NCBI GenBank assembly: GCA_011911785.1
Contig: GCA_011911785.1_4084.1
Strand: one strand, 5' to 3'
DNA: 64,000 nt
Source of the DNA: a phage
Position 1 is the first letter of the stretch; each line of letters opens with the position of its first letter. Below, piece by piece: positions 1-9,618 of the stretch. The notes below the pieces were generated by a model that was not told the origin of the DNA, did no database searches, and was given only the letters and a program-made list of their open reading frames with translations. A program made the position numbers and the translations under genes.

Positions 1-202
1 AATAACAGTACAGAAACGTTGTAAGCCAGTACAACATAGGGGTTTGTTTTGGGTGGAGTTGAGTGCATTAGCATTGAATTCAGAGTTGAGTACTGACTTC
101 TTCTATTCAGATGCGAAGCCAGAAAACTTTGGATATTTGAATGGTAAGTTAGTTAAGCTTGATTATGGAGATTAATATGTACGCATTGTATAATAAAGAA
201 AA

Positions 203-235
203 GGGTTGACTTCAGTCAGCCCTTTTTGCTATAAT
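203..235 (+). promoter_or_regulatory. Type-A terminator/promoter cassette: hairpin GGGTTGACTTCAGTCAGCCC + T-run, -35 TTGACT inside the stem, -10 TATAAT
   Basis: Read directly; near-identical cassette recurs at 931, 2356, 33296, 36728, 40039, 43119 and degenerate at 27554. Confidence 0.6.
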
Positions 236-263
236 TATTTCATCGAAACGAGAGGATGAATAC

Positions 264-701
264 ATGACACGCATTAACTTAGTACACGTTAAAGAACTTG
301 CTGACCAACATCTGATGGCTGAATATCGTGAACTTCCACGTGTGTTTGGTGCTGTACAAAAACATGTTCAAGCACGTAAGCGTGTACGTGATTTCAAAAT
401 TAACAGTACTTATCTGTTAGGTTCAGGTCATGTAACATTCTTCTACGACAAGTTACTGTACTTACAGAAGCGTCATATTGATATTGTTAACGAATGTTTG
501 CGTCGTGGTATGAAGATTCAAAACACTGAAGTAAACGACATTAGCGGCTTCCCTGCTGAGTTTTGTAATGACTACGTACCATCGGAGTCCGAGATTAAAA
601 CATCACGCGAGCGTTTGATTGAGAAGCTTCAGATGAAGCCTAAGTGGTATAAGTTTACTGATGTTGAGCTACCTGTATATTATGTTGATATGATACAATG
701 A
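264..701 (+). CDS. denV: Endonuclease V (pyrimidine dimer DNA glycosylase), phage T4 DenV homolog
   Basis: 145-aa product matches T4 endonuclease V along its length ([37 protein letters not shown]); T4 sequence recalled from memory. Confidence 0.9.
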
Positions 702-925
702 ATGATGAAGAATTCAAAAAATATGCGATTGAGAAGCTTGATTCATACAAGCCACGCGAAACGTATAAATTTAATCCTGATAAAACAAAAGCATCTATAA
801 GATGGTTGATTAATTCACCCAAATATACATTTGATGAAAAATATTCATGGATAGTGCAATGTAGTGATTATGAGGATTTGGTATATAATATTAAACTGTG
901 TTGGTATGAATACAACAATAAATGA
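698..925 (+). CDS. Hypothetical protein (75 aa)
   Basis: ATGA start/stop overlap with denV suggests translational coupling. Confidence 0.45.
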
Positions 926-930
926 TATAA

Positions 931-964
931 GGGGTTGACTTCGGTCAGCCCTTTTTGCTATAAT
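931..964 (+). promoter_or_regulatory. Type-A terminator/promoter cassette (GGGGTTGACTTCGGTCAGCCC + T-run; -10 TATAAT)
   Basis: Hairpin with TTCG loop followed by TTTTT, then TATAAT; read directly. Confidence 0.6.
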
Positions 965-990
965 CATTTCATCAACTCAAGAGGTAACAC

Positions 991-1227
991 ATGAAACTAT
1001 CTTTTATACGTTTAGCAGAATTCTTCGGTACTGATGTAATTACTCTACAACAAATCGCAGATAATACATCATTAACTACGCAAGAAGTACTTGACTTAGA
1101 TGTAATTAAGAGCGATAATACTTCCATTGATTTCAAAGAAGGTCTTGTCGAAAAAGATAAGATTCAAGCTAAGATTCATGGTGCTGGGCGGGTTCAGTAC
1201 TGGAAAGGAGTTTTAAGTAATGTTTGA
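991..1227 (+). CDS. Hypothetical protein (78 aa)
   Basis: ORF after type-A promoter with RBS GAGG. Confidence 0.45.
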   Translation: MKLSFIRLAEFFGTDVITLQQIADNTSLTTQEVLDLDVIKSDNTSIDFKEGLVEKDKIQAKIHGAGRVQYWKGVLSNV

Positions 1228-2347
1228 ACAGTACTATTTTAATGAAGATGGTGAAAAAGTTTATTTTTATGAAGAGCATGGAATGCTTTTTGAGTGGATG
1301 AAAGCCGAAGATATAAATTTTGTAAAAAAATCCAACATTGCTCAAGATCCTATTAGTATTATGGGTGAAATAAATGATCCAAGAGTTCTTGGATTCTATA
1401 TCAATAGATCACAAGATTATATATCTAAATCAAAAACCAAACTTGTAGTGAATAACGATGGTATGTTAGTTATTGGAGCCACCTGCACGAATTTTATTAG
1501 GCAGGGATTTAATGGGAAGATTTTTTACAATATTATTAATATTCCATATTACAGCCTTAATCATATTAGTGTCATCAACAAAAAATATGGTTATGATAAA
1601 TTTACTTATAGTGGAATAACTTCGTTTAACTCTACACTTCCTAGTAGAACTAAAATTGAAGTAGTATGTAATGATTGTGGTGATATAAAAAAACCCACAA
1701 TTACTGACTTAGCTACTGGTAAAATTGGTTGTCAAGAATGCACGAAACAAACTTTAGGTGAATTTATAAAAAAATCACATCTTATACACGGAAATAAGTA
1801 TGATTATTCTTTATATGACTACATTAACAACCAAGTAACCTCTATTATAATATGCAAAGAACATGGTGAATTTCAACAAACACCAAATTCACATCTGTCT
1901 GGTTCTGGTTGTCCCACGTGTGCAGTAAAAGGATTTAAAACTTCCAAGCCTGGAAGATTTTATATTCACAATGATTATGCAAAAAAATCGGATAAAGCTG
2001 GTATTACAAACAAAACTATTAAAGCAAGATTAAGTCCACAAAACTTATCTTATAAAAAAATATATAAAGTAGATAATTTTTGGAGTAATGAAATTTCCAT
2101 TTTATTTCATAAGAATGTGGGTGGGAAACTTGCTAGAGAATTGGAAATAATAATACATACAATTGCGTTATGTGGTAAACTATATAATAAAGGTTATTAT
2201 GAAAAGGGAGATGGTTGCACAGAAACATTCAATAATATCCATCGTCCTAAAGTTAATGAAGCCATTAAAAAATTCTTAGCTGAACATGAAGGAGAATACA
2301 TCATTGAACGTGATATCAATGGTATTTTTGGTGAAGTGATTGTATAA
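1220..2347 (+). CDS. Hypothetical protein with two zinc-ribbon-like Cys/His clusters (375 aa)
   Basis: CNDCG..GCQEC and CKEHG..GCPTC motifs; start overlaps upstream stop. Confidence 0.5.
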   Translation: MFEQYYFNEDGEKVYFYEEHGMLFEWMKAEDINFVKKSNIAQDPISIMGEINDPRVLGFYINRSQDYISKSKTKLVVNNDGMLVIGATCTNFIRQGFNGKIFYNIINIPYYSLNHISVINKKYGYDKFTYSGITSFNSTLPSRTKIEVVCNDCGDIKKPTITDLATGKIGCQECTKQTLGEFIKKSHLIHGNKYDYSLYDYINNQVTSIIICKEHGEFQQTPNSHLSGSGCPTCAVKGFKTSKPGRFYIHNDYAKKSDKAGITNKTIKARLSPQNLSYKKIYKVDNFWSNEISILFHKNVGGKLARELEIIIHTIALCGKLYNKGYYEKGDGCTETFNNIHRPKVNEAIKKFLAEHEGEYIIERDINGIFGEVIV

Positions 2348-2355
2348 AACAAAAA

Positions 2356-2387
2356 GGTTGACTTCGGTCAGCCCTTTTTGCTATAAT
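2356..2387 (+). promoter_or_regulatory. Type-A terminator/promoter cassette
   Basis: GGTTGACTTCGGTCAGCC hairpin + TTTTT + TATAAT upstream of ATPase gene. Confidence 0.6.
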
Positions 2388-2415
2388 CATATCATCAACT
2401 ACAGAGGGTAACGAA

Positions 2416-3189
2416 ATGAACCGTACAGAGAAAGCAATCCAAATCGAAAAGAACTTCAACTCCATGATGGCAGCACTGGAATGTCTTCTTGATACACAAA
2501 CTAACTCTATCAACTCTCTGATCGTTTCTGGCAAGGGTGGTGTTGGTAAAACTTTCAACGTTGACCAACGGTTGCAGAAAGCTGATGACAACTTTGAAAT
2601 CGACTACAAGAAAATCAGTGGCAAAGTAACTACTGTTGGTCTGTACGAAGCACTGTATCGTTCACGTCACGCTGCTTCAGTACTGTTACTTGATGATGTT
2701 GATATCTTCTCTGATGAGACGAATATTGATTTGCTTAAAGCTGTATTGGATACTTCTGAGAAGCGTGTAGTATCTTACGCTACTTCTGCTAAGTACCTGG
2801 AACAGCAGGGTATCCCTAAGCAGTTTGAATTCCGTGGTAAAGTAATCTTCCTGACTAACAAAAACCTGTCACAGATTGCTAAAGGTAAAAGCAGTTTAGC
2901 ACCACACATTGATGCACTGATCACTCGTAGTATCTTTGTTGACCTGCAACTGTTCACCAACGAAGAAGTGATGATTCACATTGAGAACATCATGAACAAA
3001 ACTAACATCCTTGAAAACAATGGTGTTAACAAAAATGGTTGTAAAGCAATCCTGAACTGGATGCTGAGCAATGAAGACCGTCTGCGTAGTCCTTCACTGC
3101 GTATGCCAGTACTGATCGCTGGTCTTTACAATAAATTCCCATACGACTGGGAATCAATGGCTGAAAATATGTTCCTGGAGAAAAATTAA
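2416..3189 (+). CDS. P-loop NTPase, AAA+-like ATPase (257 aa)
   Basis: Walker A GKGGVGKT, Walker B LLLDDVD, sensor-1-like FLTNKN. Confidence 0.6.
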   Translation: MNRTEKAIQIEKNFNSMMAALECLLDTQTNSINSLIVSGKGGVGKTFNVDQRLQKADDNFEIDYKKISGKVTTVGLYEALYRSRHAASVLLLDDVDIFSDETNIDLLKAVLDTSEKRVVSYATSAKYLEQQGIPKQFEFRGKVIFLTNKNLSQIAKGKSSLAPHIDALITRSIFVDLQLFTNEEVMIHIENIMNKTNILENNGVNKNGCKAILNWMLSNEDRLRSPSLRMPVLIAGLYNKFPYDWESMAENMFLEKN

Positions 3190-3216
3190 TTGATAACATA
3201 TAACATCGATAAGGTC

Positions 3217-3408
3217 ATGTTATTATATGCATGTATTAACATGATTGTCGTTTTAGTTAAAGTTTATAGATGGTTTCATACACTTGATATTGATACTGAA
3301 AAGGAGTATAATCCTCAAGAAGCATCTCTTGGATTAAAAATTATTGTTTTAATTAGCGTAGTATCCGTATACATGGTATTACTATCAACTATGATTAAGT
3401 TCACTTAA
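3217..3408 (+). CDS. Small hydrophobic membrane protein (63 aa; track start 3190 is TTG)
   Basis: Hydrophobic ORF; first ATG with AAGG upstream. Confidence 0.3.
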   Translation: MLLYACINMIVVLVKVYRWFHTLDIDTEKEYNPQEASLGLKIIVLISVVSVYMVLLSTMIKFT

Positions 3409-3418
3409 CGAGGAACAT

Positions 3419-3751
3419 ATGATTAATTTATTTTCAACTGAGGTTATGATTAAAATTACATTAGTATACATGTGTCTATTCGTATACTACCACGCTCTCA
3501 TCGGAATCTTGTGGTTCTTTAAGAAAGGTCGTCTTCTTGAGAAATTGTACCCAGACTATATGATATTGTATACAATCGTCCAGGGTGTAGGAATAGTACT
3601 GGGAATTCTAGTGCACTTGATATATTTGTTTGAACCACACCTTCCGTGTATTACACAATACATTGTATTCGGAACTACTATTATGTGGCTTGTAATGATG
3701 GGTGTGTATGGTCTGTATTTGTACAGGAAACGTATAGTGGGAGATTTCTAA
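3419..3751 (+). CDS. Small membrane protein, WFFKxx paralog group (110 aa)
   Basis: RBS GAGGA; hydrophobic; motif LWFFKKGRL. Confidence 0.5.
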   Translation: MINLFSTEVMIKITLVYMCLFVYYHALIGILWFFKKGRLLEKLYPDYMILYTIVQGVGIVLGILVHLIYLFEPHLPCITQYIVFGTTIMWLVMMGVYGLYLYRKRIVGDF

Positions 3752-4104
3752 TGCAAGAGGTTATTAAATGGTTGACAACCAGTGATATTGCTAGTACACT
3801 GAACTATGTACTCATTATCTTATATCCGTTTTTGATGGTTCTAAACTTCATTGGATGGTATTTCAAACGTCCAATTTACTACAAGATTAATAATTCAGAG
3901 TACTATGAAAGTGTTGTAATTGCAACCTCAATCACGTATACTATGGGTGCAGTTCTTACAGTCATAGGATTAGGTCAAGGTGATAATCTTAACTTTATGC
4001 TATGTACCTTTGTTATGATATGTATTCCAACACTAATTGTAATTCTATCGAATATTGTGTGGAAAAAAATGTTATTTGCACGCAACAAAATACCGGAGGC
4101 ATAA
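3751..4104 (+). CDS. Small membrane protein, paralog (117 aa)
   Basis: TAATG overlap with upstream stop; motif GWYFKRPIYY; track start 3646 rejected. Confidence 0.5.
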   Translation: MQEVIKWLTTSDIASTLNYVLIILYPFLMVLNFIGWYFKRPIYYKINNSEYYESVVIATSITYTMGAVLTVIGLGQGDNLNFMLCTFVMICIPTLIVILSNIVWKKMLFARNKIPEA

Positions 4105-4439
4105 TGGAGTACTTTATCAGTTTACTACCGTGGTACTTGAAAGTAAGTACAATTTACTACATCATTTCCGCTGGGTTTTATTTCTTGATGTGGTTCTTTA
4201 AACGTCCAATCAGTGAATTCATCGATAATCATCTGATGAGTTTTAAACTTCACTGCTGGTTTTGGTCATCGTCAGTGATGCCATTCATCCATTACGGAAT
4301 TATCAGTACTGGTAAACGTTCTAATGGTGAAATAATTTCCTTGGGTTTTTACTGGATATCGACTATTGTTTACATTGGTGTGCTTTTGTATCCATTTGTA
4401 GTTAAACTACGAAACTCTATCCCAGATCACAGGAAATAA
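4104..4439 (+). CDS. Small membrane protein, paralog (111 aa)
   Basis: RBS GGAGG; TAATG overlap; motif MWFFKRPISEF. Confidence 0.5.
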   Translation: MEYFISLLPWYLKVSTIYYIISAGFYFLMWFFKRPISEFIDNHLMSFKLHCWFWSSSVMPFIHYGIISTGKRSNGEIISLGFYWISTIVYIGVLLYPFVVKLRNSIPDHRK

Positions 4440-4440
4440 T

Positions 4441-4761
4441 ATGAAGATTGAATTGATTCTTTTCACAGTAAGTGCATTCTACTTTTGGGTTTGCTGGATT
4501 GGTTTTCTCTTTGCACTAAAACCATTTGACTTCTATGCAAAGCAGTGTAAAAATGCTGCTGTTGGTAATGTAGCTTTTACATTGCTTAGTACATTATGGG
4601 TAATACTGCTTATATTCAATCCACCTGATAATGATTTGGAAATGTCATTGTGTACATTATTTGCAGTCCTGTGTGTATTCGCAGCATTCTGTAGTTATAT
4701 TGGAAAGTTATGTTCTTTGGTATCAAATTTCCATCGTAAACAAAAAGATAAGAGGGTATAA
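4441..4761 (+). CDS. Small membrane protein (106 aa)
   Basis: Hydrophobic ORF, coupled in operon. Confidence 0.5.
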   Translation: MKIELILFTVSAFYFWVCWIGFLFALKPFDFYAKQCKNAAVGNVAFTLLSTLWVILLIFNPPDNDLEMSLCTLFAVLCVFAAFCSYIGKLCSLVSNFHRKQKDKRV

Positions 4762-5144
4762 TGTACACAACAATATATGTTATTCTTAATATCCTAAGTG
4801 CATGTCTAACAATAGGTGCATTAATATACATTGGAAAGTTCTTTTGTGTAAAGTTCGTCGAAGATGTGTATGAGGATATTGAATACGACTACGAATCTAA
4901 GTGCTTCTTCCATGTTGGATATATCATTTGCTTAGTAACTACTATCTTCACATGGATTGTATACGTATTCGGGATTGGAATCACTTCAATTGGTGAACCA
5001 GTACTGTGCATTATTGGATTAGTGTTTTCTTCAATATTCGGGTTATTGTTCATGATTATTCTTATGTATAATTTAATCTGTACTGCTATTGTTCCTTTCT
5101 TTTATGAAATTCACAATAACATTAAACGTAAGAAACGAGGTTAA
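4761..5144 (+). CDS. Small membrane protein (127 aa)
   Basis: TAATG overlap; multiple hydrophobic segments. Confidence 0.5.
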   Translation: MYTTIYVILNILSACLTIGALIYIGKFFCVKFVEDVYEDIEYDYESKCFFHVGYIICLVTTIFTWIVYVFGIGITSIGEPVLCIIGLVFSSIFGLLFMIILMYNLICTAIVPFFYEIHNNIKRKKRG

Positions 5145-5146
5145 TT

Positions 5147-5500
5147 ATGTTTTCTCCTGCTGGTCAAGTTATATTCATGTTATGTACACTGGTATTCTTT
5201 ATGTTATCTGTACTACTTGTGATGAAATTCTTTCACATGAAACCATTCAGTACTTGGTATGATAATATTGTGTACTATATTGGTAATGCTATAACACTCT
5301 TTTCAGTTGCATACTATTTCGGTTATTTTGCAATGCTATTTGGGTTATTACTTGAAGCTCGTGCATTGCTTGTAGCTGGTATGGTGGCAGATTTAATGTG
5401 TCTAACACTAGCCTGTATTGGATTTACTGTATGTATGTCGTTAACCATTTTTGACAAATTATGTAAACTACACAAACGTTTAGGTGAGAGGATGAAATAA
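5147..5500 (+). CDS. Small membrane protein (117 aa)
   Basis: Hydrophobic ORF with RBS. Confidence 0.5.
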   Translation: MFSPAGQVIFMLCTLVFFMLSVLLVMKFFHMKPFSTWYDNIVYYIGNAITLFSVAYYFGYFAMLFGLLLEARALLVAGMVADLMCLTLACIGFTVCMSLTIFDKLCKLHKRLGERMK

Positions 5501-5883
5501 TGACTTACCGTGATTACTTTTGTATTTTTGAAATTGCAGTATTCGCTTTAGGTTCAGTCTGGTTACTTCTATACTACTTCTGTATTAATCCAGTATTCAA
5601 TTGGGTTCGTCGTGCTGAACAAAGTAGTGCTGGACAAATAGCAGTTGTTATGGGTATGACATATTATATGTTCGCCGTAGCTTCTGTTGTTATTGAAGTA
5701 ATATTTGGTGGCATGAATGGTGATGATGGGGCAACGTTCTATGGATTCGTAACATTCTTTAGTGTGCTGATTCCGTGTGGTGCTCTTATTATTACTGCGT
5801 TCTATTGGCTATATCGTGGTGTTAAGAAGCTGGAATCAATTCACGTAGATATGCGTTCAAAACGAATGGGGATTGACAAATAA
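5500..5883 (+). CDS. Small membrane protein (127 aa)
   Basis: Start overlaps upstream stop; hydrophobic. Confidence 0.5.
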   Translation: MTYRDYFCIFEIAVFALGSVWLLLYYFCINPVFNWVRRAEQSSAGQIAVVMGMTYYMFAVASVVIEVIFGGMNGDDGATFYGFVTFFSVLIPCGALIITAFYWLYRGVKKLESIHVDMRSKRMGIDK

Positions 5884-6434
5884 TGAAACGAAGTTCTAAT
5901 GTCATTCGTGAACGATTTCGTAAAGTAAAAACTATTAAGTACGGGACTATTGCTCTTGTACTTAGTAGTACTTTTATTATGACAGGATGTGAACGCTCTG
6001 AAGATATTTCTGTATATCAGAATGTGGACCAATGTAAAAGAAGTGGTAGCAATCCGGTACAATGTGAAGATGATTATAAAAAAGCCCTAACTGAATCGGA
6101 AAAGGTAGCACCAAAATATAGTTCACAGAGTGATTGCTCAAGCGATTTTGGTAATCAATGTCAACAACATAGTTCGGGATTCTTTTGGATTCCAATCATG
6201 AGCGGGTTCCATAGTAGTGGTAATGGGTTTGCTAGTCAACCACTATACAACTCTAAAGGGAACTACTATGATGCTGGTGGTAACTCCTACGGTAGCAGTA
6301 CTGCAAAAGGTACAACACGTACTGTATCAAGTTCCGCATTAGCTCCAAAACCTCCTACAACGACCACAATCACCCGCAATGGGTTTGGGTCTTCAATAGC
6401 CAGAAGTGCCGCTCACACGAGTTCTGGTGGATAA
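5883..6434 (+). CDS. Putative lipoprotein (183 aa), possibly YgiB/DUF1190-like
   Basis: Signal peptide + lipobox FIMTGC; Ser/Gly/Thr-rich C-terminus; YgiB resemblance is from memory, unverified. Confidence 0.5.
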   Translation: MKRSSNVIRERFRKVKTIKYGTIALVLSSTFIMTGCERSEDISVYQNVDQCKRSGSNPVQCEDDYKKALTESEKVAPKYSSQSDCSSDFGNQCQQHSSGFFWIPIMSGFHSSGNGFASQPLYNSKGNYYDAGGNSYGSSTAKGTTRTVSSSALAPKPPTTTTITRNGFGSSIARSAAHTSSGG

Positions 6435-6435
6435 T

Positions 6436-6465
6436 AAAAAAGCCCACTTAATGTGGGCTTTTTGT
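6436..6465. terminator. Bidirectional intrinsic terminator between convergent genes
   Basis: AAAAAGCCCAC-ttaat-GTGGGCTTTTT; A-run and T-run flank the hairpin. Confidence 0.75.
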
Positions 6466-9398
6466 TATTTGTGTTTTATGTGTAAAGTATCTAATATTGT
6501 ATTGAACAATGATTTAGCAGAAATCATGATTACTTGATCAAAATCTTTAGTATAAGAAATATTAGCAGTACTGGAAGAATCTTTCACCTCATCCGGTAAT
6601 GCATCAAACTCTTCTTTTTCCATAATCTTTTCAAGTTCTTCACGAGAAATGGCTTTTACGTTTTCAATAGTCCTTAGTTGTATATTATAATCTTTATAAT
6701 ACGAAACTAAGTTCGTTGCGTATGAACCATCTTTAGATGCTGTTCCAGTAAAATCATAACATCCTGTATCAGTACTAACCCAATCGATTTTCCCTGAGCT
6801 ACCACTATATACACCTTTGTTAAATTTAATATTAACAACATCGCCAATAGTTTTCAATATACCACCTTTACATTCATTAAATGCGTTTAATTGATAACTT
6901 GTAGTCATATAGAATTTCGGTTCTAATGTAACAGTATCACCTACAGTTGCTTTCATGTCAGAAACACTTAAGAACAATTCATTAAATCCTTTTGAATAAG
7001 TCTTGGTAATTGTTGTTCCATCCCTGTTAGTTACTGTGTATTCTAAGTCCAATTCACAAATACTATTCAATGATAAGTAAGGGATATCAAATTTATCAGT
7101 ACTAGCATCATAAGGACATCTTGATGATGGTAGTATACCAGTAGGGTTTGGTACGTATTGAACTTTTGTTAACTCATACCCGCTTGCATTCGCTGGTGTA
7201 ACTGTAATAGACGGTGTAGATATTCCTTTCATTCCACAGAAGTATATGTTATCTGGAAAATCATTTATTACGAAGTCAGTGACAGGAATATCATAAGTAT
7301 CTTTATCAGTCCAATTGAGAACAACATTAGAACTGGTTGGATCAACAATATGTTCACTAGAACCACAGAAATATACTGATTTGGTATTAGTAATCATTAG
7401 TAATGTTTTGGATGATGAGTTCAATTCAAGAACATCTTTCACTTCAAGACCAGATGGTAATGTCAATGGTAACTTCGTGAATGATGTTAAATCTTGTTCA
7501 TCTTTAACACCACTAGTCCCCGCCGGAAACTTACCTGAACCATAGAAAACACCTTTATTCGTCATGAAATACATGAACGGGGTTGATGTTCCTTTGTCAA
7601 ATAGTTTAATGTCATCACATGTTAAACCATCAGGTAAACTTACTTTAGATGGAGTTCTATAAACACCAGGCTTAATACCACCTTCACCATTACTTACATC
7701 ACCTAGTACATATAAATCTTTACCTAGTTTCAAGAACATTGATTTATTTTTAGCACACAAGAATGTATCATATGATTTATCATCAATTGGTAGCTTGGTA
7801 TATTCGGTGTATGTAGGTATTGAATCATCAATCCACGAACTATCACCACTAATGTAAATGTGATTGTTTCTGTCAATATAATATGAATACACATCAGTAC
7901 TGTTCATATATAAAGCATTTAGTGCATTTGTTTTCACTAAGTGATTGAACTTAAGAACTTGTTTTCCATCGTACTTATGGGAGTTGACACCAATATCACC
8001 ATTCAGGCTACTACCAAATGAATATATGTGACCACGTGGTAATAGAACTTGAACACCACTTTTGGTTAAATTATATTTGGAGTGCAAGAGATCGTTATAT
8101 ACAACTCTAACTTTCTTAAAGATATCAGTACATTCAATCCACGATTTAGATGGTGTACCATCCATTCCTATTATTGCTGGATCACCATAATAATAAGCTT
8201 TATTTTCATATGATATTTTAAAAGATGATTTACCATCTTTTGTATTAGCACTGAAATACACATCTTTACTATCTTTAATTGGATAAGTACTATTCTCTAC
8301 AAAAGTATTATATGAGATATCGTTGTTAGAACTATTAAGAACAAAAGAAGTAGATGTACTATTGGACTTATAGACTGCTACGGAAGATGTATCACTGAAA
8401 TCAATTTTAGTGAACGTATCTTTGTATGTTTCGTTTAATAATCCTACATAAAAAACATCAGTGCCATCAGTAACGAATATAGCATTTCTATTATTACATA
8501 AAGAAGTAATATTTTTTACTACTTTATTTGAATTATAGTTCGGTAACTTCTTTAATCCACGAACAAAATTATCACAAATAATACCAGTACCATAGAAGTT
8601 ATAATCTTTATCACAGTATATAAATGCTGTATCATATGGTGAAGTACTTAAATTCTTATAGAATGGGAATGGAGTGAATGTGAATTGTAGAACATTACGC
8701 AATTCCCCTACTGTCTCTGTTGGGAATTGTCTGTTTTTATTATTTCCAAGAAAAACAACTCTATCTGTTAGGTATGTGTACATAATTCCATATGGTTTTA
8801 CGTACAAGTCATTATATCCTAATGATAATTTAGTTGGTGATGTTAGTGGACCGGAATTTATTTTATTTTGGTTAAAAGAAAATTCATTTGAATTATAACC
8901 AGCCCCATATGTATTACCATCAGTACTTAAATAATATACAGTAGCTTCCCCTGCTCCAAGAAAAGTCTTTACATCAGTTGCTAACGTTTTTTTGAAAGTT
9001 GGATAAAATTTATTATATGTTCCCGTTCCCATCATCAGTTCACCATTGCGGTTATGACCACGAGCATATAGAATACCTTTGTCTGTATCTAAGAAGAACA
9101 TACCATTATATGTTTTGTAAATCTTACCTTTTGTAATATCGAAATTGGAAAAATCATCACTAATATCAATGAATATCGTCTCAAGGTTATTTTCAAGGGA
9201 GTTTAGAGATTTACCACAATACCATACTGAGTTATCTTTTTTAACAGCAACACAACCACACGGACTGGCATCAAAATATGTTACATCGGAAAGAACCAGA
9301 GATAAGTTCTTTGTACTGCAATAATTATCCATTGCATATAAATCGGAATCTTTAAGTATATATACGGAATTCCCTACCGCTTTAATCGAATTTATCAT
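6465..9398 (-). CDS. Large beta-propeller-like repeat protein, RCC1-like (977 aa), lacks the conserved N-terminus of the downstream paralogs
   Basis: Start moved to ATG with RBS GAGGAT (track start is TTG at 9488); Gly-rich repeats e.g. GHNRNGELMMGTG. Confidence 0.55.
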   Translation of the reverse strand: MINSIKAVGNSVYILKDSDLYAMDNYCSTKNLSLVLSDVTYFDASPCGCVAVKKDNSVWYCGKSLNSLENNLETIFIDISDDFSNFDITKGKIYKTYNGMFFLDTDKGILYARGHNRNGELMMGTGTYNKFYPTFKKTLATDVKTFLGAGEATVYYLSTDGNTYGAGYNSNEFSFNQNKINSGPLTSPTKLSLGYNDLYVKPYGIMYTYLTDRVVFLGNNKNRQFPTETVGELRNVLQFTFTPFPFYKNLSTSPYDTAFIYCDKDYNFYGTGIICDNFVRGLKKLPNYNSNKVVKNITSLCNNRNAIFVTDGTDVFYVGLLNETYKDTFTKIDFSDTSSVAVYKSNSTSTSFVLNSSNNDISYNTFVENSTYPIKDSKDVYFSANTKDGKSSFKISYENKAYYYGDPAIIGMDGTPSKSWIECTDIFKKVRVVYNDLLHSKYNLTKSGVQVLLPRGHIYSFGSSLNGDIGVNSHKYDGKQVLKFNHLVKTNALNALYMNSTDVYSYYIDRNNHIYISGDSSWIDDSIPTYTEYTKLPIDDKSYDTFLCAKNKSMFLKLGKDLYVLGDVSNGEGGIKPGVYRTPSKVSLPDGLTCDDIKLFDKGTSTPFMYFMTNKGVFYGSGKFPAGTSGVKDEQDLTSFTKLPLTLPSGLEVKDVLELNSSSKTLLMITNTKSVYFCGSSEHIVDPTSSNVVLNWTDKDTYDIPVTDFVINDFPDNIYFCGMKGISTPSITVTPANASGYELTKVQYVPNPTGILPSSRCPYDASTDKFDIPYLSLNSICELDLEYTVTNRDGTTITKTYSKGFNELFLSVSDMKATVGDTVTLEPKFYMTTSYQLNAFNECKGGILKTIGDVVNIKFNKGVYSGSSGKIDWVSTDTGCYDFTGTASKDGSYATNLVSYYKDYNIQLRTIENVKAISREELEKIMEKEEFDALPDEVKDSSSTANISYTKDFDQVIMISAKSLFNTILDTLHIKHK

Positions 9399-9618
9399 GT
9401 TTATATCCTCATAAATTGATACCAATTCTAATGTATTTACCCACTTAAAGTACAAAAAATGATCAATTAAATGGGGAATCTTTAACAAATGAATTCATGA
9501 TGTACTTGATGAATTGCCCATACCAACGGATTCCCCAGTCCCAGCATACCACATGGTATTATCGAACTTTTTTATCATTGTAGTATCATAACCACACCAA
9601 ACATCATCAACATTAGTA

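What the first reader, a model, noticed from the sequence alone, without database searches (positions are those of the whole stretch)
991..3189. Zn-ribbon-motif protein and AAA+-like ATPase immediately downstream of denV
The 375-aa protein has two Cys4/Cys3His clusters and the 257-aa protein has Walker A/B and a sensor-1-like motif. This gene content differs from the ipII/ipIII/e neighbourhood that follows denV in T4, so the locus has been remodelled. The pair could be a DNA-transaction or defence-related module.
Basis: partly seen in the sequence, partly recalled or inferred. Interest (0 to 1): 0.4.

Follow-up and report, generated by a model that had tools for sequence, protein, structure and literature searches.

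The report
Homing endonuclease beside NrdC.10-type ATPase
The two genes are real but do not work as a pair: one is a selfish, mobile "homing endonuclease" gene inserted in a variable spot of a jumbo coliphage genome, and the other is the jumbo-phage version of a widespread phage ATPase (T4 NrdC.10) whose function is still unknown, so the locus is largely ordinary.

Summary
The ORFs and motifs are there as described. The context is wrong: the window is not T4-like. It comes from an Asteriusvirus jumbo coliphage (PBECO4/121Q/A4 group, about 350 kb).

The 375-aa protein (1220-2347) is 98% identical to PBECO4 gp306 ('endonuclease'). It has an N-terminal region, two DUF723/DUF4379-type zinc modules (Cys4 and Cys3His), and a divergent C-terminal T5orf172/GIY-YIG-type nuclease domain (hhalign 97.7%, E 2e-12). 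This is the architecture of free-standing T5orf172-family homing endonucleases.

It overlaps the end of a conserved 78-aa ORF (991-1227) that the finding did not mention. Related phages carry different endonucleases in this slot, or none: SD-2_S15 has an empty site, and ph0011 lacks both genes.

The 257-aa protein (2416-3189) is a homologue of T4 NrdC.10 (phrog_1250, 1310 phage records). It has a complete AAA+ motif set, is under strong purifying selection, and lacks the T4 N-terminal domain. Its function is unknown.

A terminator/promoter element separates the two genes. Three copies of this roughly 70-bp PeSL-like element bound the cassettes, and the recombination breakpoints fall on them.

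Verdict: a new member of known kinds, of low interest. The residual curiosity is that two AAA alleles only 58% identical sit in otherwise near-identical genomes.

The parts
195..267 (+). Copy 1 of the ~70-bp composite terminator/promoter (PeSL-like) element, upstream of denV. It comprises a hairpin with a U-run, -35 TTGACT (206-211), an 18-nt spacer, TG-extended -10 TATAAT (230-235), and a Shine-Dalgarno sequence.
   Evidence: the repeat finder family D1; pattern search gives 3 hits in 64 kb against 0 expected; promoter scan 11/12; RNA hairpin -19.2 kcal/mol, z -6.4
264..701 (+). denV (pyrimidine-dimer DNA glycosylase, 145 aa). Context gene.
   Evidence: PF03013 E 9e-15; phrog_1183 E 4e-59
698..925 (+). 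75-aa ORF of unknown function that overlaps the denV stop codon. A rare accessory gene.
   Evidence: ORF list; tblastn finds it at 96% only in phage A4, plus 4 weak hits
924..996 (+). Copy 2 of the terminator/promoter element (-35 at 935-940, -10 at 959-964). It forms the left boundary of the ORF78+endonuclease cassette.
   Evidence: hairpin -16.3 kcal/mol, z -4.6; alignment of the three copies
991..1227 (+). ORF78, a conserved 78-aa Asteriusvirus protein (phrog_34150) of unknown function. Its 3' end is the insertion point for endonuclease genes.
   Evidence: phrog_34150 E 5e-52; single copy in 29 phage records at 82-96% aa identity, next to variously annotated endonucleases; no Pfam, NCBIfam or PADLOC hit
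1220..2347 (+). ORF375, a free-standing T5orf172-family homing-endonuclease-type gene. Its Shine-Dalgarno sequence (AAGGAG) lies inside the end of ORF78, and its start overlaps ORF78 by 8 nt.
   Evidence: 98% identical to PBECO4 gp306 'endonuclease'; phrog_681 'endonuclease' E 2.5e-47; BLASTP E 2e-26 to the Pfam-positive T5orf172 endonuclease gp56 of Salmonella virus VSt472
1601..1927 (+). Two zinc-ribbon (treble-clef, DUF723/DUF4379-type) DNA-binding modules, aa 128-236. The Cys4 ligands are encoded within 1667-1741 and the Cys3His ligands within 1853-1921.
   Evidence: Pfam DUF4379 at 19.7 bits, below the 24.5 cut-off; all 120 listed homologues match this segment and carry PF05265, most also PF14311, usually in several repeats
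1931..2344 (+). C-terminal divergent T5orf172/MUG113-like (GIY-YIG superfamily) nuclease domain, aa 238-375. Residues invariant in this subfamily include Y248, G261 (of KAGIT), R270, E309 and E335 (of GDGCTE).
   Evidence: Only 7 cluster representatives in 1.84 billion proteins; family alignment A4; hhalign against six T5orf172/MUG113 domains gives probability 97.7%, E 2.3e-12, 96 columns; the Pfam models themselves do not hit it
2347..2419 (+). Copy 3 of the terminator/promoter element (hairpin 2356-2373, -35 at 2358-2363, -10 at 2382-2387). It ends the endonuclease cassette and drives the ATPase operon.
   Evidence: hairpin -14.5 kcal/mol, z -4.6; homology to PBECO4 drops from 97% to 68% here
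2416..3189 (+). NrdC.10-family AAA+ ATPase (257 aa). Motif coordinates: Walker A 2530-2553, Walker B D93-D94 2692-2697, sensor-1 N148 2857-2859, R171 2926-2928, R229 3100-3102.
   Evidence: phrog_1250 E 1e-99; tblastn gives 1310 phage records, with T4 at 40.7% identity and 94% coverage; the T4 locus lies between nrdC.11 and nrdC.9; RaK2_00307 is annotated nrdC.10; BFVD nrdC.10 TM 0.95; AF2 pLDDT 93
3190..6463 (+). The rest of the transcription unit headed by the ATPase: eight small membrane proteins with roughly 3 TM segments each (3190-5883), a DUF1190 lipoprotein-like ORF (5883-6434), and a strong terminator (6437-6463).
   Evidence: ORFs; hydropathy and weak paralogy, with relatives downstream of nrdC.10 in RaK2; DUF1190 E 2e-31; terminator

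Best explanation
The interval holds two functionally independent units in a hyperplastic region of an Asteriusvirus jumbo phage.

Unit 1, 924-2347. This is a cassette transcribed from a sigma70-type promoter embedded in a terminator hairpin. It encodes a conserved 78-aa protein and, translationally coupled to it, a free-standing T5orf172-family homing endonuclease. By inference, the two zinc-ribbon modules (possibly with the N-terminal region) recognise a DNA site, and the C-terminal GIY-YIG-superfamily domain cuts endonuclease-less relatives near the ORF78/ATPase junction during co-infection. Repair from the endonuclease-bearing genome would then copy the gene, and some flanking sequence, into the cut genome.

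Unit 2, 2347-6463. This is an early operon headed by the jumbo-phage version of T4 NrdC.10. By inference it is a ring-forming AAA+ ATPase of the pre-sensor-1-insert group. It has all catalytic motifs but lacks the N-terminal domain of its T4 counterpart. Small membrane proteins follow it.

The roughly 70-bp terminator/promoter repeats act like T4 PeSLs: short homologies at which cassettes are gained, lost and swapped.

Shown here: gene identities, domain homologies, presence/absence polymorphism, and breakpoints. Inferred: nuclease activity, target site, homing, oligomeric state, and the biological role of the ATPase.
For: Context:
- Megablast places the window in Asteriusvirus.

Endonuclease identity:
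- phrog_681 'endonuclease'.
- 98% identity to PBECO4 gp306.
- Zinc modules shared with 800+ DUF723/DUF4379 proteins.
- The C-terminal domain aligns to T5orf172/MUG113 domains: hhalign 97.7%, E 2.3e-12; BLASTP E 2e-26 to VSt472 gp56, which is Pfam-positive.
- The same nuclease domain is fused to CapR-type or other DNA-binding modules in relatives. This is the modular architecture described for T5orf172 homing endonucleases in PMC10448857.

Mobility signatures:
- Empty site in SD-2_S15, with the junction resolved to within a few bases.
- ph0011 has denV directly followed by the ATPase.
- Five different nucleases occupy the same slot, in PBECO4/window, G17, A4, 121Q and SHEFM2K.
- The endonuclease core has 3 substitutions in about 1030 nt against PBECO4, while adjacent ORF78 has 12 in 234 nt. 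Comparing ORF78 with the whole endonuclease ORF (13 in 1125 nt) gives Fisher p 3e-4.
- The window is a mosaic: PBECO4-like endonuclease, UE-S1-like ATPase, A4-like downstream genes.

ATPase:
- phrog_1250 E 1e-99; homologue of T4 NrdC.10.
- Invariant motifs and a confident model.
- Purifying selection.

Repeats:
- 3 copies against 0 expected; stable hairpins; 11/12 promoter matches.
- 4-8 copies per Asteriusvirus genome; annotated as terminators in G17 and UE-S1.
Against: - The Pfam T5orf172, MUG113 and GIY-YIG models do not hit ORF375 directly. The assignment rests on profile-profile and transitive evidence.
- The AF2 model of ORF375 was unusable (pLDDT 48), so the fold is not confirmed.
- No cleavage site, target or homing event is known for this subfamily.
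- The N-terminal ~127 aa and ORF78 have no assignable function.
- T5orf172-type proteins can be domesticated, as with CapR and Odn (PMC10448857), so selfish mobility is not the only option.
- The ATPase's role is unknown. Co-transcription with the membrane proteins is inferred only from the absence of an intervening terminator.
Confidence: 0.75

Rival explanations
1. ORF375 is a domesticated derivative of a homing endonuclease that now serves the phage. It might be a sequence-specific repressor (like the satellite protein CapR) or a nuclease aimed at a competitor such as a satellite or a co-infecting phage (like ICP1 Odn), rather than a selfish homing element.
For: PMC10448857 documents repeated co-option of T5orf172 proteins and their Zn-finger domains. 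In most phages that have ORF78, it is followed by some nuclease, which could mean the slot is useful. ORF375 differs from PBECO4 gp306 at 8 synonymous and 4 non-synonymous codons, which is compatible with constraint.
Against: The slot can be empty, or the whole cassette can be absent. Its occupants have unrelated DNA-binding and nuclease domains. That pattern fits turnover of selfish genes better than a conserved function. All residues invariant in the nuclease subfamily are retained, so it is not a nuclease-dead regulator.
Confidence: 0.15
2. One reading: the Zn-ribbon protein and the AAA+ ATPase form one functional DNA-transaction or defence/anti-defence module.
For: The genes are adjacent and on the same strand. 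Nuclease-plus-ATPase pairs are common in defence systems (general knowledge).
Against: A terminator/promoter element lies between them. The ATPase occurs with no adjacent nuclease in ph0011 and UE-S1, and in T4-like phages across 1310 records. The nuclease in the slot differs between phages that carry the same ATPase allele. In the window, a PBECO4-type nuclease is paired with a different ATPase allele, 58% identical, from the one in PBECO4. There are no PADLOC matches.
Confidence: 0.04
3. Split-gene idea: ORF78 is the detached N-terminal domain of the NrdC.10-type ATPase, separated from it by insertion of the endonuclease gene. The T4 protein has about 78 extra N-terminal residues, and the ATPase here starts at profile position 78 of phrog_1250.
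For: The lengths coincide: ORF78 is 78 aa, and the phrog_1250 match covers positions 78-326 of 327. In phages that have ORF78, it lies upstream of the ATPase with only the endonuclease slot between them. Distant homologues carry HTH-like N-terminal extensions.
Against: ORF78 shows no similarity to the T4 NrdC.10 N-terminus or to the extensions of P0041/P0043/P0044: BLASTP E 1.5 and 31, hhalign probability 0.1%. In the empty-site phage SD-2_S15, ORF78 and the ATPase are still separate ORFs with a terminator/promoter between them. ph0011, UE-S1, Turkey5 and WPEC3 show a 257-aa ATPase and no ORF78 between denV and it; the first three are also absent from the list of ORF78-containing records. Rfam finds no group I intron.
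Confidence: 0.03

Closest known systems
T5orf172-family free-standing homing endonucleases of phages (ICP1, T5-like and Vibrio phages; Barth, Dunham and Seed 2023, PMC10448857)
   Same: Both have 'beads-on-a-string' Zn-finger DNA-binding modules (DUF723/DUF4379, with CapR in sister proteins) N-terminal to a C-terminal T5orf172/GIY-YIG-superfamily domain. Both are free-standing genes between conserved genes. Both show domain swapping between paralogues, and both sit exactly at boundaries of genetic exchange between related phages.
   Different: The nuclease domain is a divergent, rare subfamily: 7 cluster representatives in 1.84 billion proteins, missed by the Pfam models, with an extended C-terminal tail. 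There is an extra ~127-aa N-terminal region of unknown function, and a tightly coupled upstream 78-aa ORF. The neighbouring genes are accessory genes rather than essential ones. No activity data exist.
Escherichia phage PBECO4 gp306 / gp307 (NC_027364)
   Same: gp306 is 98% identical to ORF375 and gp307 is 96% identical to ORF78, in the same order with the same overlap. gp306 is already annotated 'endonuclease'.
   Different: PBECO4 has a 12-nt in-frame duplication, an extra 60-aa ORF (gp305) before the ATPase, and the other ATPase allele (58% identical).
Phage T4 NrdC.10 (phrog_1250)
   Same: About 40% identity over the whole AAA+ module, with the same motif set. Both are early-region accessory genes, and homing endonuclease genes lie nearby (mobD in T4).
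   Different: The T4 protein (322 aa) has a beta-rich N-terminal domain of about 78 aa that is absent here. The downstream genes differ: a membrane-protein array in the jumbo phages, nrdC.9-nrdC.7 in T4. Neither protein has a known function.
PeSLs (promoter-early stem-loops) of T4-type phages (Arbiol et al. 2010, PMC2839356; Comeau et al. 2014, PMC4122927)
   Same: Both are short composite terminator plus strong sigma70-like promoter motifs. Both are repeated in hyperplastic regions, flank accessory-gene cassettes, and coincide with indel and replacement breakpoints between close relatives.
   Different: These occur in an unrelated jumbo-phage genus. There are only 4-8 copies per ~350-kb genome, three of them in this 2.3-kb stretch. 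The -35 hexamer lies inside the hairpin. Promoter and terminator activity and mini-circle formation have not been tested.

Membership tests
T5orf172-family homing endonuclease | T5orf172/MUG113 (GIY-YIG superfamily) nuclease domain | tested here: met
   The Pfam models do not hit directly at E<0.1. The C-terminal family profile aligns to six T5orf172/MUG113 domains with hhalign probability 97.7%, E 2.3e-12, over 96 columns. BLASTP to the Pfam-positive VSt472 gp56 spans the domain, E 2e-26. HMM hits fall at the start of the T5orf172 domains of P0097 and P0160.
T5orf172-family homing endonuclease | Zn-finger DNA-binding modules (CapR, DUF723 or DUF4379) N-terminal to the nuclease domain | tested here: met
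   Two modules with Cys4 and Cys3His ligands. DUF4379 scores 19.7 bits, below the cut-off. All 120 listed homologues align to aa 128-240 and carry PF05265, most also PF14311. Sister proteins with the same nuclease domain carry CapR.
T5orf172-family homing endonuclease | Free-standing gene with presence/absence polymorphism at a fixed site in related genomes | tested here: met
   Empty site in SD-2_S15 with a clean junction. The whole cassette is absent in ph0011 and UE-S1. Different nucleases occupy the same slot in G17, A4, 121Q and SHEFM2K.
T5orf172-family homing endonuclease | Site-specific DNA cleavage and super-Mendelian inheritance (homing) | not testable with these tools
   This needs biochemistry and phage crosses. 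The only indirect signals are that the endonuclease core is far less diverged from PBECO4 than the flanking ORF78 and that the flanks are mosaic.
Canonical GIY-YIG nuclease (Pfam PF01541) | GIY and YIG tyrosines, catalytic Arg and Glu, recognised by the family model | tested here: not met
   No PF01541 hit. The first motif is FYI (Y248). The second is KAGIT, with no Tyr, as in T5orf172 proteins. R270 and E309 are invariant in the subfamily. No structure is available (AF2 pLDDT 48).
Group I intron-encoded homing endonuclease | ORF embedded in a self-splicing intron that interrupts a host gene | tested here: not met
   Rfam at E<=1 finds nothing in 600-3600. The ORF lies between two complete ORFs, and the empty site shows no interrupted gene.
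T4 NrdC.10 family (phrog_1250) AAA+ ATPase | Full-length sequence homology of the ATPase module to T4 NrdC.10 | tested here: met
   phrog_1250 E 1.1e-99. tblastn to T4 gives 40.7% identity, 94% coverage, E 4e-57. The T4 gene lies between nrdC.11 and nrdC.9. RaK2 orthologue is annotated nrdC.10. BFVD nrdC.10 model TM 0.95.
T4 NrdC.10 family (phrog_1250) AAA+ ATPase | N-terminal ~78-aa domain present in the T4-type proteins | tested here: not met
   The match starts at profile position 78. The T4 protein is 322 aa and this one 257 aa. ORF78 is unrelated to that domain.
AAA+ ATPase (active) | Walker A, Walker B, sensor 1, arginine finger, sensor 2, and an alpha-beta core plus helical lid | tested here: met
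PeSL-type mobile regulatory cassette | Composite stem-loop terminator plus sigma70-like promoter, repeated, at indel or replacement breakpoints in a hyperplastic region | tested here: met
   Three copies against 0 expected. 11/12 promoter match with TG extension. Hairpins of -14.5 to -19.2 kcal/mol, z -4.6 to -6.4. Breakpoints against ph0011, A4, PBECO4, G17 and SD-2_S15 fall on the element.
PeSL-type mobile regulatory cassette | Demonstrated promoter and terminator activity, mini-circle formation, and membership of T4-type phages | not testable with these tools
   No expression or DNA-form data are available. The host genome is an Asteriusvirus, not a T4-type phage, so this is an analogue rather than a family member.
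Known anti-phage defence systems (PADLOC) | Significant match of either protein to a defence-system model | tested here: not met
   Only noise-level hits, E 0.004-0.02, on short stretches.

The most novel reading that the evidence does not exclude
The NrdC.10-type ATPase and the conserved downstream array of small membrane proteins may form a host-interaction module, for example anti-defence or superinfection exclusion. On this reading its alleles are under diversifying exchange. Two alleles only 58% identical sit in genomes that are 98-100% identical immediately downstream, and the adjacent homing-endonuclease hot spot plus the PeSL-like repeats would be the machinery that swaps them. If so, the old open question of what T4 NrdC.10 does could be approached through natural allele swaps in jumbo phages.
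Probability: 0.1. Interest if true: 0.55.

Novelty: new member of a known kind. Interest (0 to 1): 0.2.

Why it matters
Mostly it matters as clean-up.

- It corrects the genomic context from T4-like to jumbo Asteriusvirus.
- It shows the supposed pair is a selfish endonuclease gene sitting next to an unrelated conserved ATPase.
- It extends the T5orf172 homing-endonuclease family to a divergent nuclease subfamily that Pfam does not recognise.
- It gives a worked example, in jumbo phages, of the rule that nuclease genes mark the boundaries of genetic exchange, here combined with PeSL-like terminator/promoter repeats outside the T4 group.
- It flags that NrdC.10 homologues are widely mislabelled 'thioredoxin' or 'clamp loader' in GenBank phage records.
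- It notes that this ubiquitous phage AAA+ protein (1310 records) still has no known function.

Tried and rejected
1. Group I intron hosting the endonuclease. Rfam at E<=1 on 600-3600 gave nothing. Rejected.

2. Split NrdC.10 gene, with ORF78 as the detached N-domain. BLASTP and hhalign comparisons were negative, and the empty-site phage still has separate ORFs. Rejected.

3. Structure route for ORF375. AF2 on a 5-sequence alignment gave pLDDT 48, so no fold search was attempted on it. A homologue search and an exhaustive HMMER search with the C-terminal domain found only 1 and 7 proteins, too few for a deeper alignment.

4. PDB sequence searches gave only noise, for both proteins and for the C-terminal profile.

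5. A single profile-to-sequence hhalign against P0152 was inconclusive, E 0.14. The comparison became significant only against an alignment of six T5orf172 domains.

6. NCBIfam and PADLOC gave no meaningful hits.

8. A hairpin that would sequester the ORF375 ribosome-binding site (7-bp stem 1196-1202/1229-1235) is no more stable than shuffled sequence, z -0.14.

9. A literature search for NrdC.10 function found only one paper, which notes the AAA motif.
Full report
**1. What is in the sequence**

One search shows a run of + strand ORFs:
- denV (264-701, 145 aa)
- a 75-aa ORF that overlaps the denV stop (698-925)
- a 78-aa ORF (991-1227)
- the 375-aa ORF (1220-2347), which overlaps the 78-aa ORF by 8 nt
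- the 257-aa ORF (2416-3189)
- eight small ORFs (3190-5883) and a 183-aa ORF (5883-6434), ending at a strong terminator (6437-6463)

The 375-aa protein has Cys4 (C150, C153, C171, C174) and Cys3His (C212, H215, C231, C234) clusters. The 257-aa protein has Walker A (G39-T46), Walker B (D93, D94) and sensor-1 (N148). The finding's start coordinate, 991, is in fact the start of the 78-aa ORF, which the finding does not mention.

**2. Genomic context**

Megablast of 1-6500 against phage genomes hits only Asteriusvirus jumbo coliphages (A4, PBECO4, 121Q, UE-S1, ph0011 and others, about 350 kb) and their relatives (taxonomy). The window is therefore not from a T4-like phage, and comparing it with the T4 denV-ipII-ipIII-e neighbourhood is not meaningful.

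**3. The 375-aa protein**

Database matches:
- PHROGs gives phrog_681 'endonuclease' (E 2.5e-47) and phrog_559.
- Pfam gives only a sub-threshold DUF4379 treble-clef hit.
- The protein is 98% identical to PBECO4 gp306, which is annotated 'endonuclease'.

Zinc modules. The large protein search returned 827 hits. All 120 listed ones match only aa 128-240, the two zinc modules. They carry DUF723 (PF05265), most also DUF4379 (PF14311), usually in several repeats.

The C-terminal domain. The C-terminal 138 aa form a very small family, with 7 cluster representatives among 1.84 billion proteins. In these proteins the domain is fused to different N-terminal DNA-binding modules: DUF723-like repeats, CapR domains, or others. 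The family conserves G-[FY]...Y-[IVM]...K-x-G-[IK]-[TS]...R...LE...G-D-G-x-T-E-T, which is the T5orf172/MUG113 pattern.

The Pfam models do not reach it, but three lines of evidence connect it to T5orf172:
- An HMM of the family hits the start of the T5orf172 domains of P0097 and P0160.
- BLASTP aligns ORF375 residues 116-355 to gp56 of Salmonella virus VSt472 (E 2e-26). That is a 294-aa endonuclease with Pfam-significant MUG113 and T5orf172 domains.
- Profile-profile comparison with six such domains gives probability 97.7%, E 2.3e-12 over 96 columns.

The AF2 model was unusable (pLDDT 48), so the fold itself is unconfirmed.

This architecture, Zn-finger 'beads' followed by a C-terminal T5orf172 domain, is the one described for the T5orf172 family of free-standing phage homing endonucleases. 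Those genes swap domains and sit at recombination boundaries (PMC10448857).

**4. Evidence that the gene is a mobile insertion**

The interval between denV and the ATPase differs in nearly every relative examined:
- ph0011: denV, 67 bp, then the ATPase.
- UE-S1: two unrelated small ORFs in the interval.
- Turkey5 and WPEC3: other large endonuclease-type proteins in the interval.
- PBECO4, G17, 121Q, A4 and SHEFM2K: ORF78 followed by a nuclease gene, but a different one in each. PBECO4 has the same gene as the window. G17 has a protein with the same first ~83 aa but what looks, from its sequence motifs, like a Vsr/DUF559-type C-terminus. 121Q has CapR modules with the same C-terminal nuclease at 60% identity. 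A4 has a 565-aa protein with another T5orf172-like C-terminus. SHEFM2K has a 475-aa 'homing endonuclease'.
- Salmonella phage SD-2_S15: an empty site...GTTTTAAGTAA|AAAAAGGGTTGAC..., where the window reads ...GTTTTAAGTAA|TGTTTGAAC...(1.1 kb)...GTATAAAAC|AAAAAGGTTGAC....

ORF78 is a single-copy gene found in 29 phage records at 82-96% identity. It has no detectable family beyond phrog_34150.

Against PBECO4, the endonuclease core (1189-2220) has 3 substitutions, while ORF78 has 12 in 234 nt. Comparing ORF78 with the whole endonuclease ORF (13 differences in 1125 nt) gives Fisher p 3e-4. That is what recent lateral spread of the endonuclease would produce.

The window is a mosaic:
- ORF78 plus endonuclease match PBECO4 (97% over 921-2359).
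- The ATPase matches UE-S1 and ph0011 (98-99% aa).
- Everything from 3201 onward is 98-100% identical to A4, whose ATPase is only 58% identical.

**5. The repeats**

Three copies of a roughly 70-bp element lie at 195-267, 924-996 and 2347-2419. There are no others in the 64-kb window, against 0 expected by chance.

Each copy has:
- a GC-rich hairpin with a UUCG or UUCA loop followed by a U-run (-14.5 to -19.2 kcal/mol, z -4.6 to -6.4)
- -35 TTGACT inside the hairpin, an 18-nt spacer, and a TG-extended -10 TATAAT (11/12 match)
- a Shine-Dalgarno sequence

The G17 and UE-S1 records annotate the hairpin as a terminator. Asteriusvirus genomes carry 4-8 copies. Homology breakpoints with ph0011, A4, PBECO4, G17 and SD-2_S15 fall on these elements.

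**6. The 257-aa protein**

Homology to T4 NrdC.10:
- phrog_1250 matches at E 1e-99, but only to profile positions 78-326.
- tblastn finds homologues in 1310 phage records, including essentially all T4-like phages at about 40% identity over about 95% of the length.
- In T4 the homologue is the 322-aa gene between nrdC.11 and nrdC.9, that is nrdC.10.
- The RaK2 orthologue is annotated nrdC.10.
- The BFVD model of Aeromonas phage 25 NrdC.10 superposes with TM 0.95.
- Many GenBank records mislabel this protein 'thioredoxin' or 'clamp loader'.

Selection and dispensability. The gene is under strong purifying selection: 39 synonymous against 3 non-synonymous differing codons versus UE-S1, and 66 against 5 versus ph0011. 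It is truncated in SD-2_S15, so it may be dispensable in some hosts.

N-terminal extensions. T4-type and more distant homologues carry varied N-terminal extensions, beta-rich or HTH-like. The Asteriusvirus and RaK2 versions lack them. ORF78 is not that missing domain.

Function. The only paper in the library that mentions NrdC.10 notes an AAA motif and nothing else. Function remains unknown.

**7. Are the two proteins a module?**

No.
- A terminator/promoter element separates them.
- The ATPase occurs without a neighbouring nuclease in ph0011, UE-S1 and, broadly, the T4-like phages.
- The nuclease slot varies independently of the ATPase allele.
- Neither protein matches defence-system models.

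**8. Verdict**

The locus is a homing-endonuclease hot spot bounded by PeSL-like repeats, next to a conserved but uncharacterised NrdC.10-type AAA+ ATPase that heads an operon of small membrane proteins. The endonuclease gene is already in GenBank, annotated as such. What is added here:
- its assignment to the T5orf172 family through a divergent nuclease subfamily
- the empty-site junction
- the mosaic structure of the region

Interest is low. The one feature worth a follow-up is the sharp allelic dimorphism of the ATPase in otherwise near-identical genomes.

Noticed in passing
window 195-267, 924-996, 2347-2419: Three copies of a ~70-bp composite terminator-hairpin / sigma70-promoter / RBS element, and no others in the 64-kb window. 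Asteriusvirus genomes carry 4-8 copies each. Recombination breakpoints with relatives fall on them, so they are PeSL-like but outside the T4 group.
   Followed up: partly
window 2416-3189 versus L002 (phage A4) 2071-2841: The ATPase exists as two alleles only about 58% identical at the protein level (55-76% at the DNA level). The sequence from 3201 onward is 98-100% identical between the same two genomes. The replacement is sharp, bounded by the promoter repeat and the stop codon.
   Followed up: partly
window 3190-5883: An array of eight small ORFs (72-127 aa), most with about three hydrophobic segments and weak paralogy between some of them. A related array follows the nrdC.10 homologue in Klebsiella phage RaK2, but not in T4. 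Function unknown.
   Followed up: partly
window 5883-6434: A 183-aa ORF with an N-terminal lipobox-like sequence (…FIMTGC) and a DUF1190 domain (E 2e-31). It is the last gene before the strong terminator at 6437-6463.
   Followed up: no
window 698-925 and 667-701: A 75-aa ORF overlaps the denV stop codon. It is found at 96% identity only in phage A4, with four weak hits elsewhere. Homology to the ph0011, 121Q, G17 and UE-S1 denV stops at 667, and denV is annotated as 145 aa here but 167-171 aa in those phages, so it appears to have alternative 3' ends.
   Followed up: partly
window 1196-1202 and 1229-1235: A perfect 7-bp inverted repeat (CAGTACT/AGTACTG) brackets the Shine-Dalgarno sequence and start codon of the endonuclease gene. 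It recalls the translational control hairpins of T4 homing endonuclease genes, but the fold is no more stable than shuffled sequence (z -0.14).
   Followed up: partly
L014 (Salmonella phage SD-2_S15) 3595-3953: In this phage the endonuclease slot is empty. The ATPase gene is also truncated after about 280 bp by a deletion that runs into the membrane-protein array. This suggests the ATPase is dispensable, or that the assembly is incomplete.
   Followed up: partly
window 1744, versus L007 (PBECO4) gp306: PBECO4 carries a 12-nt in-frame tandem duplication (KQTL) between the two zinc modules that the window lacks. This kind of repeat-mediated change has been described for T5orf172 endonuclease genes.
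   Followed up: no
public records found with window 2416-3186: NrdC.10 homologues are annotated 'thioredoxin', 'clamp loader of DNA polymerase' or 'transcriptional regulator FleQ' in many GenBank phage records. These labels look like propagated mis-annotations.
   Followed up: no
window 6465-9488 (- strand): A 1007-aa ORF converges on the same terminator from the opposite strand. It was not examined.
   Followed up: no
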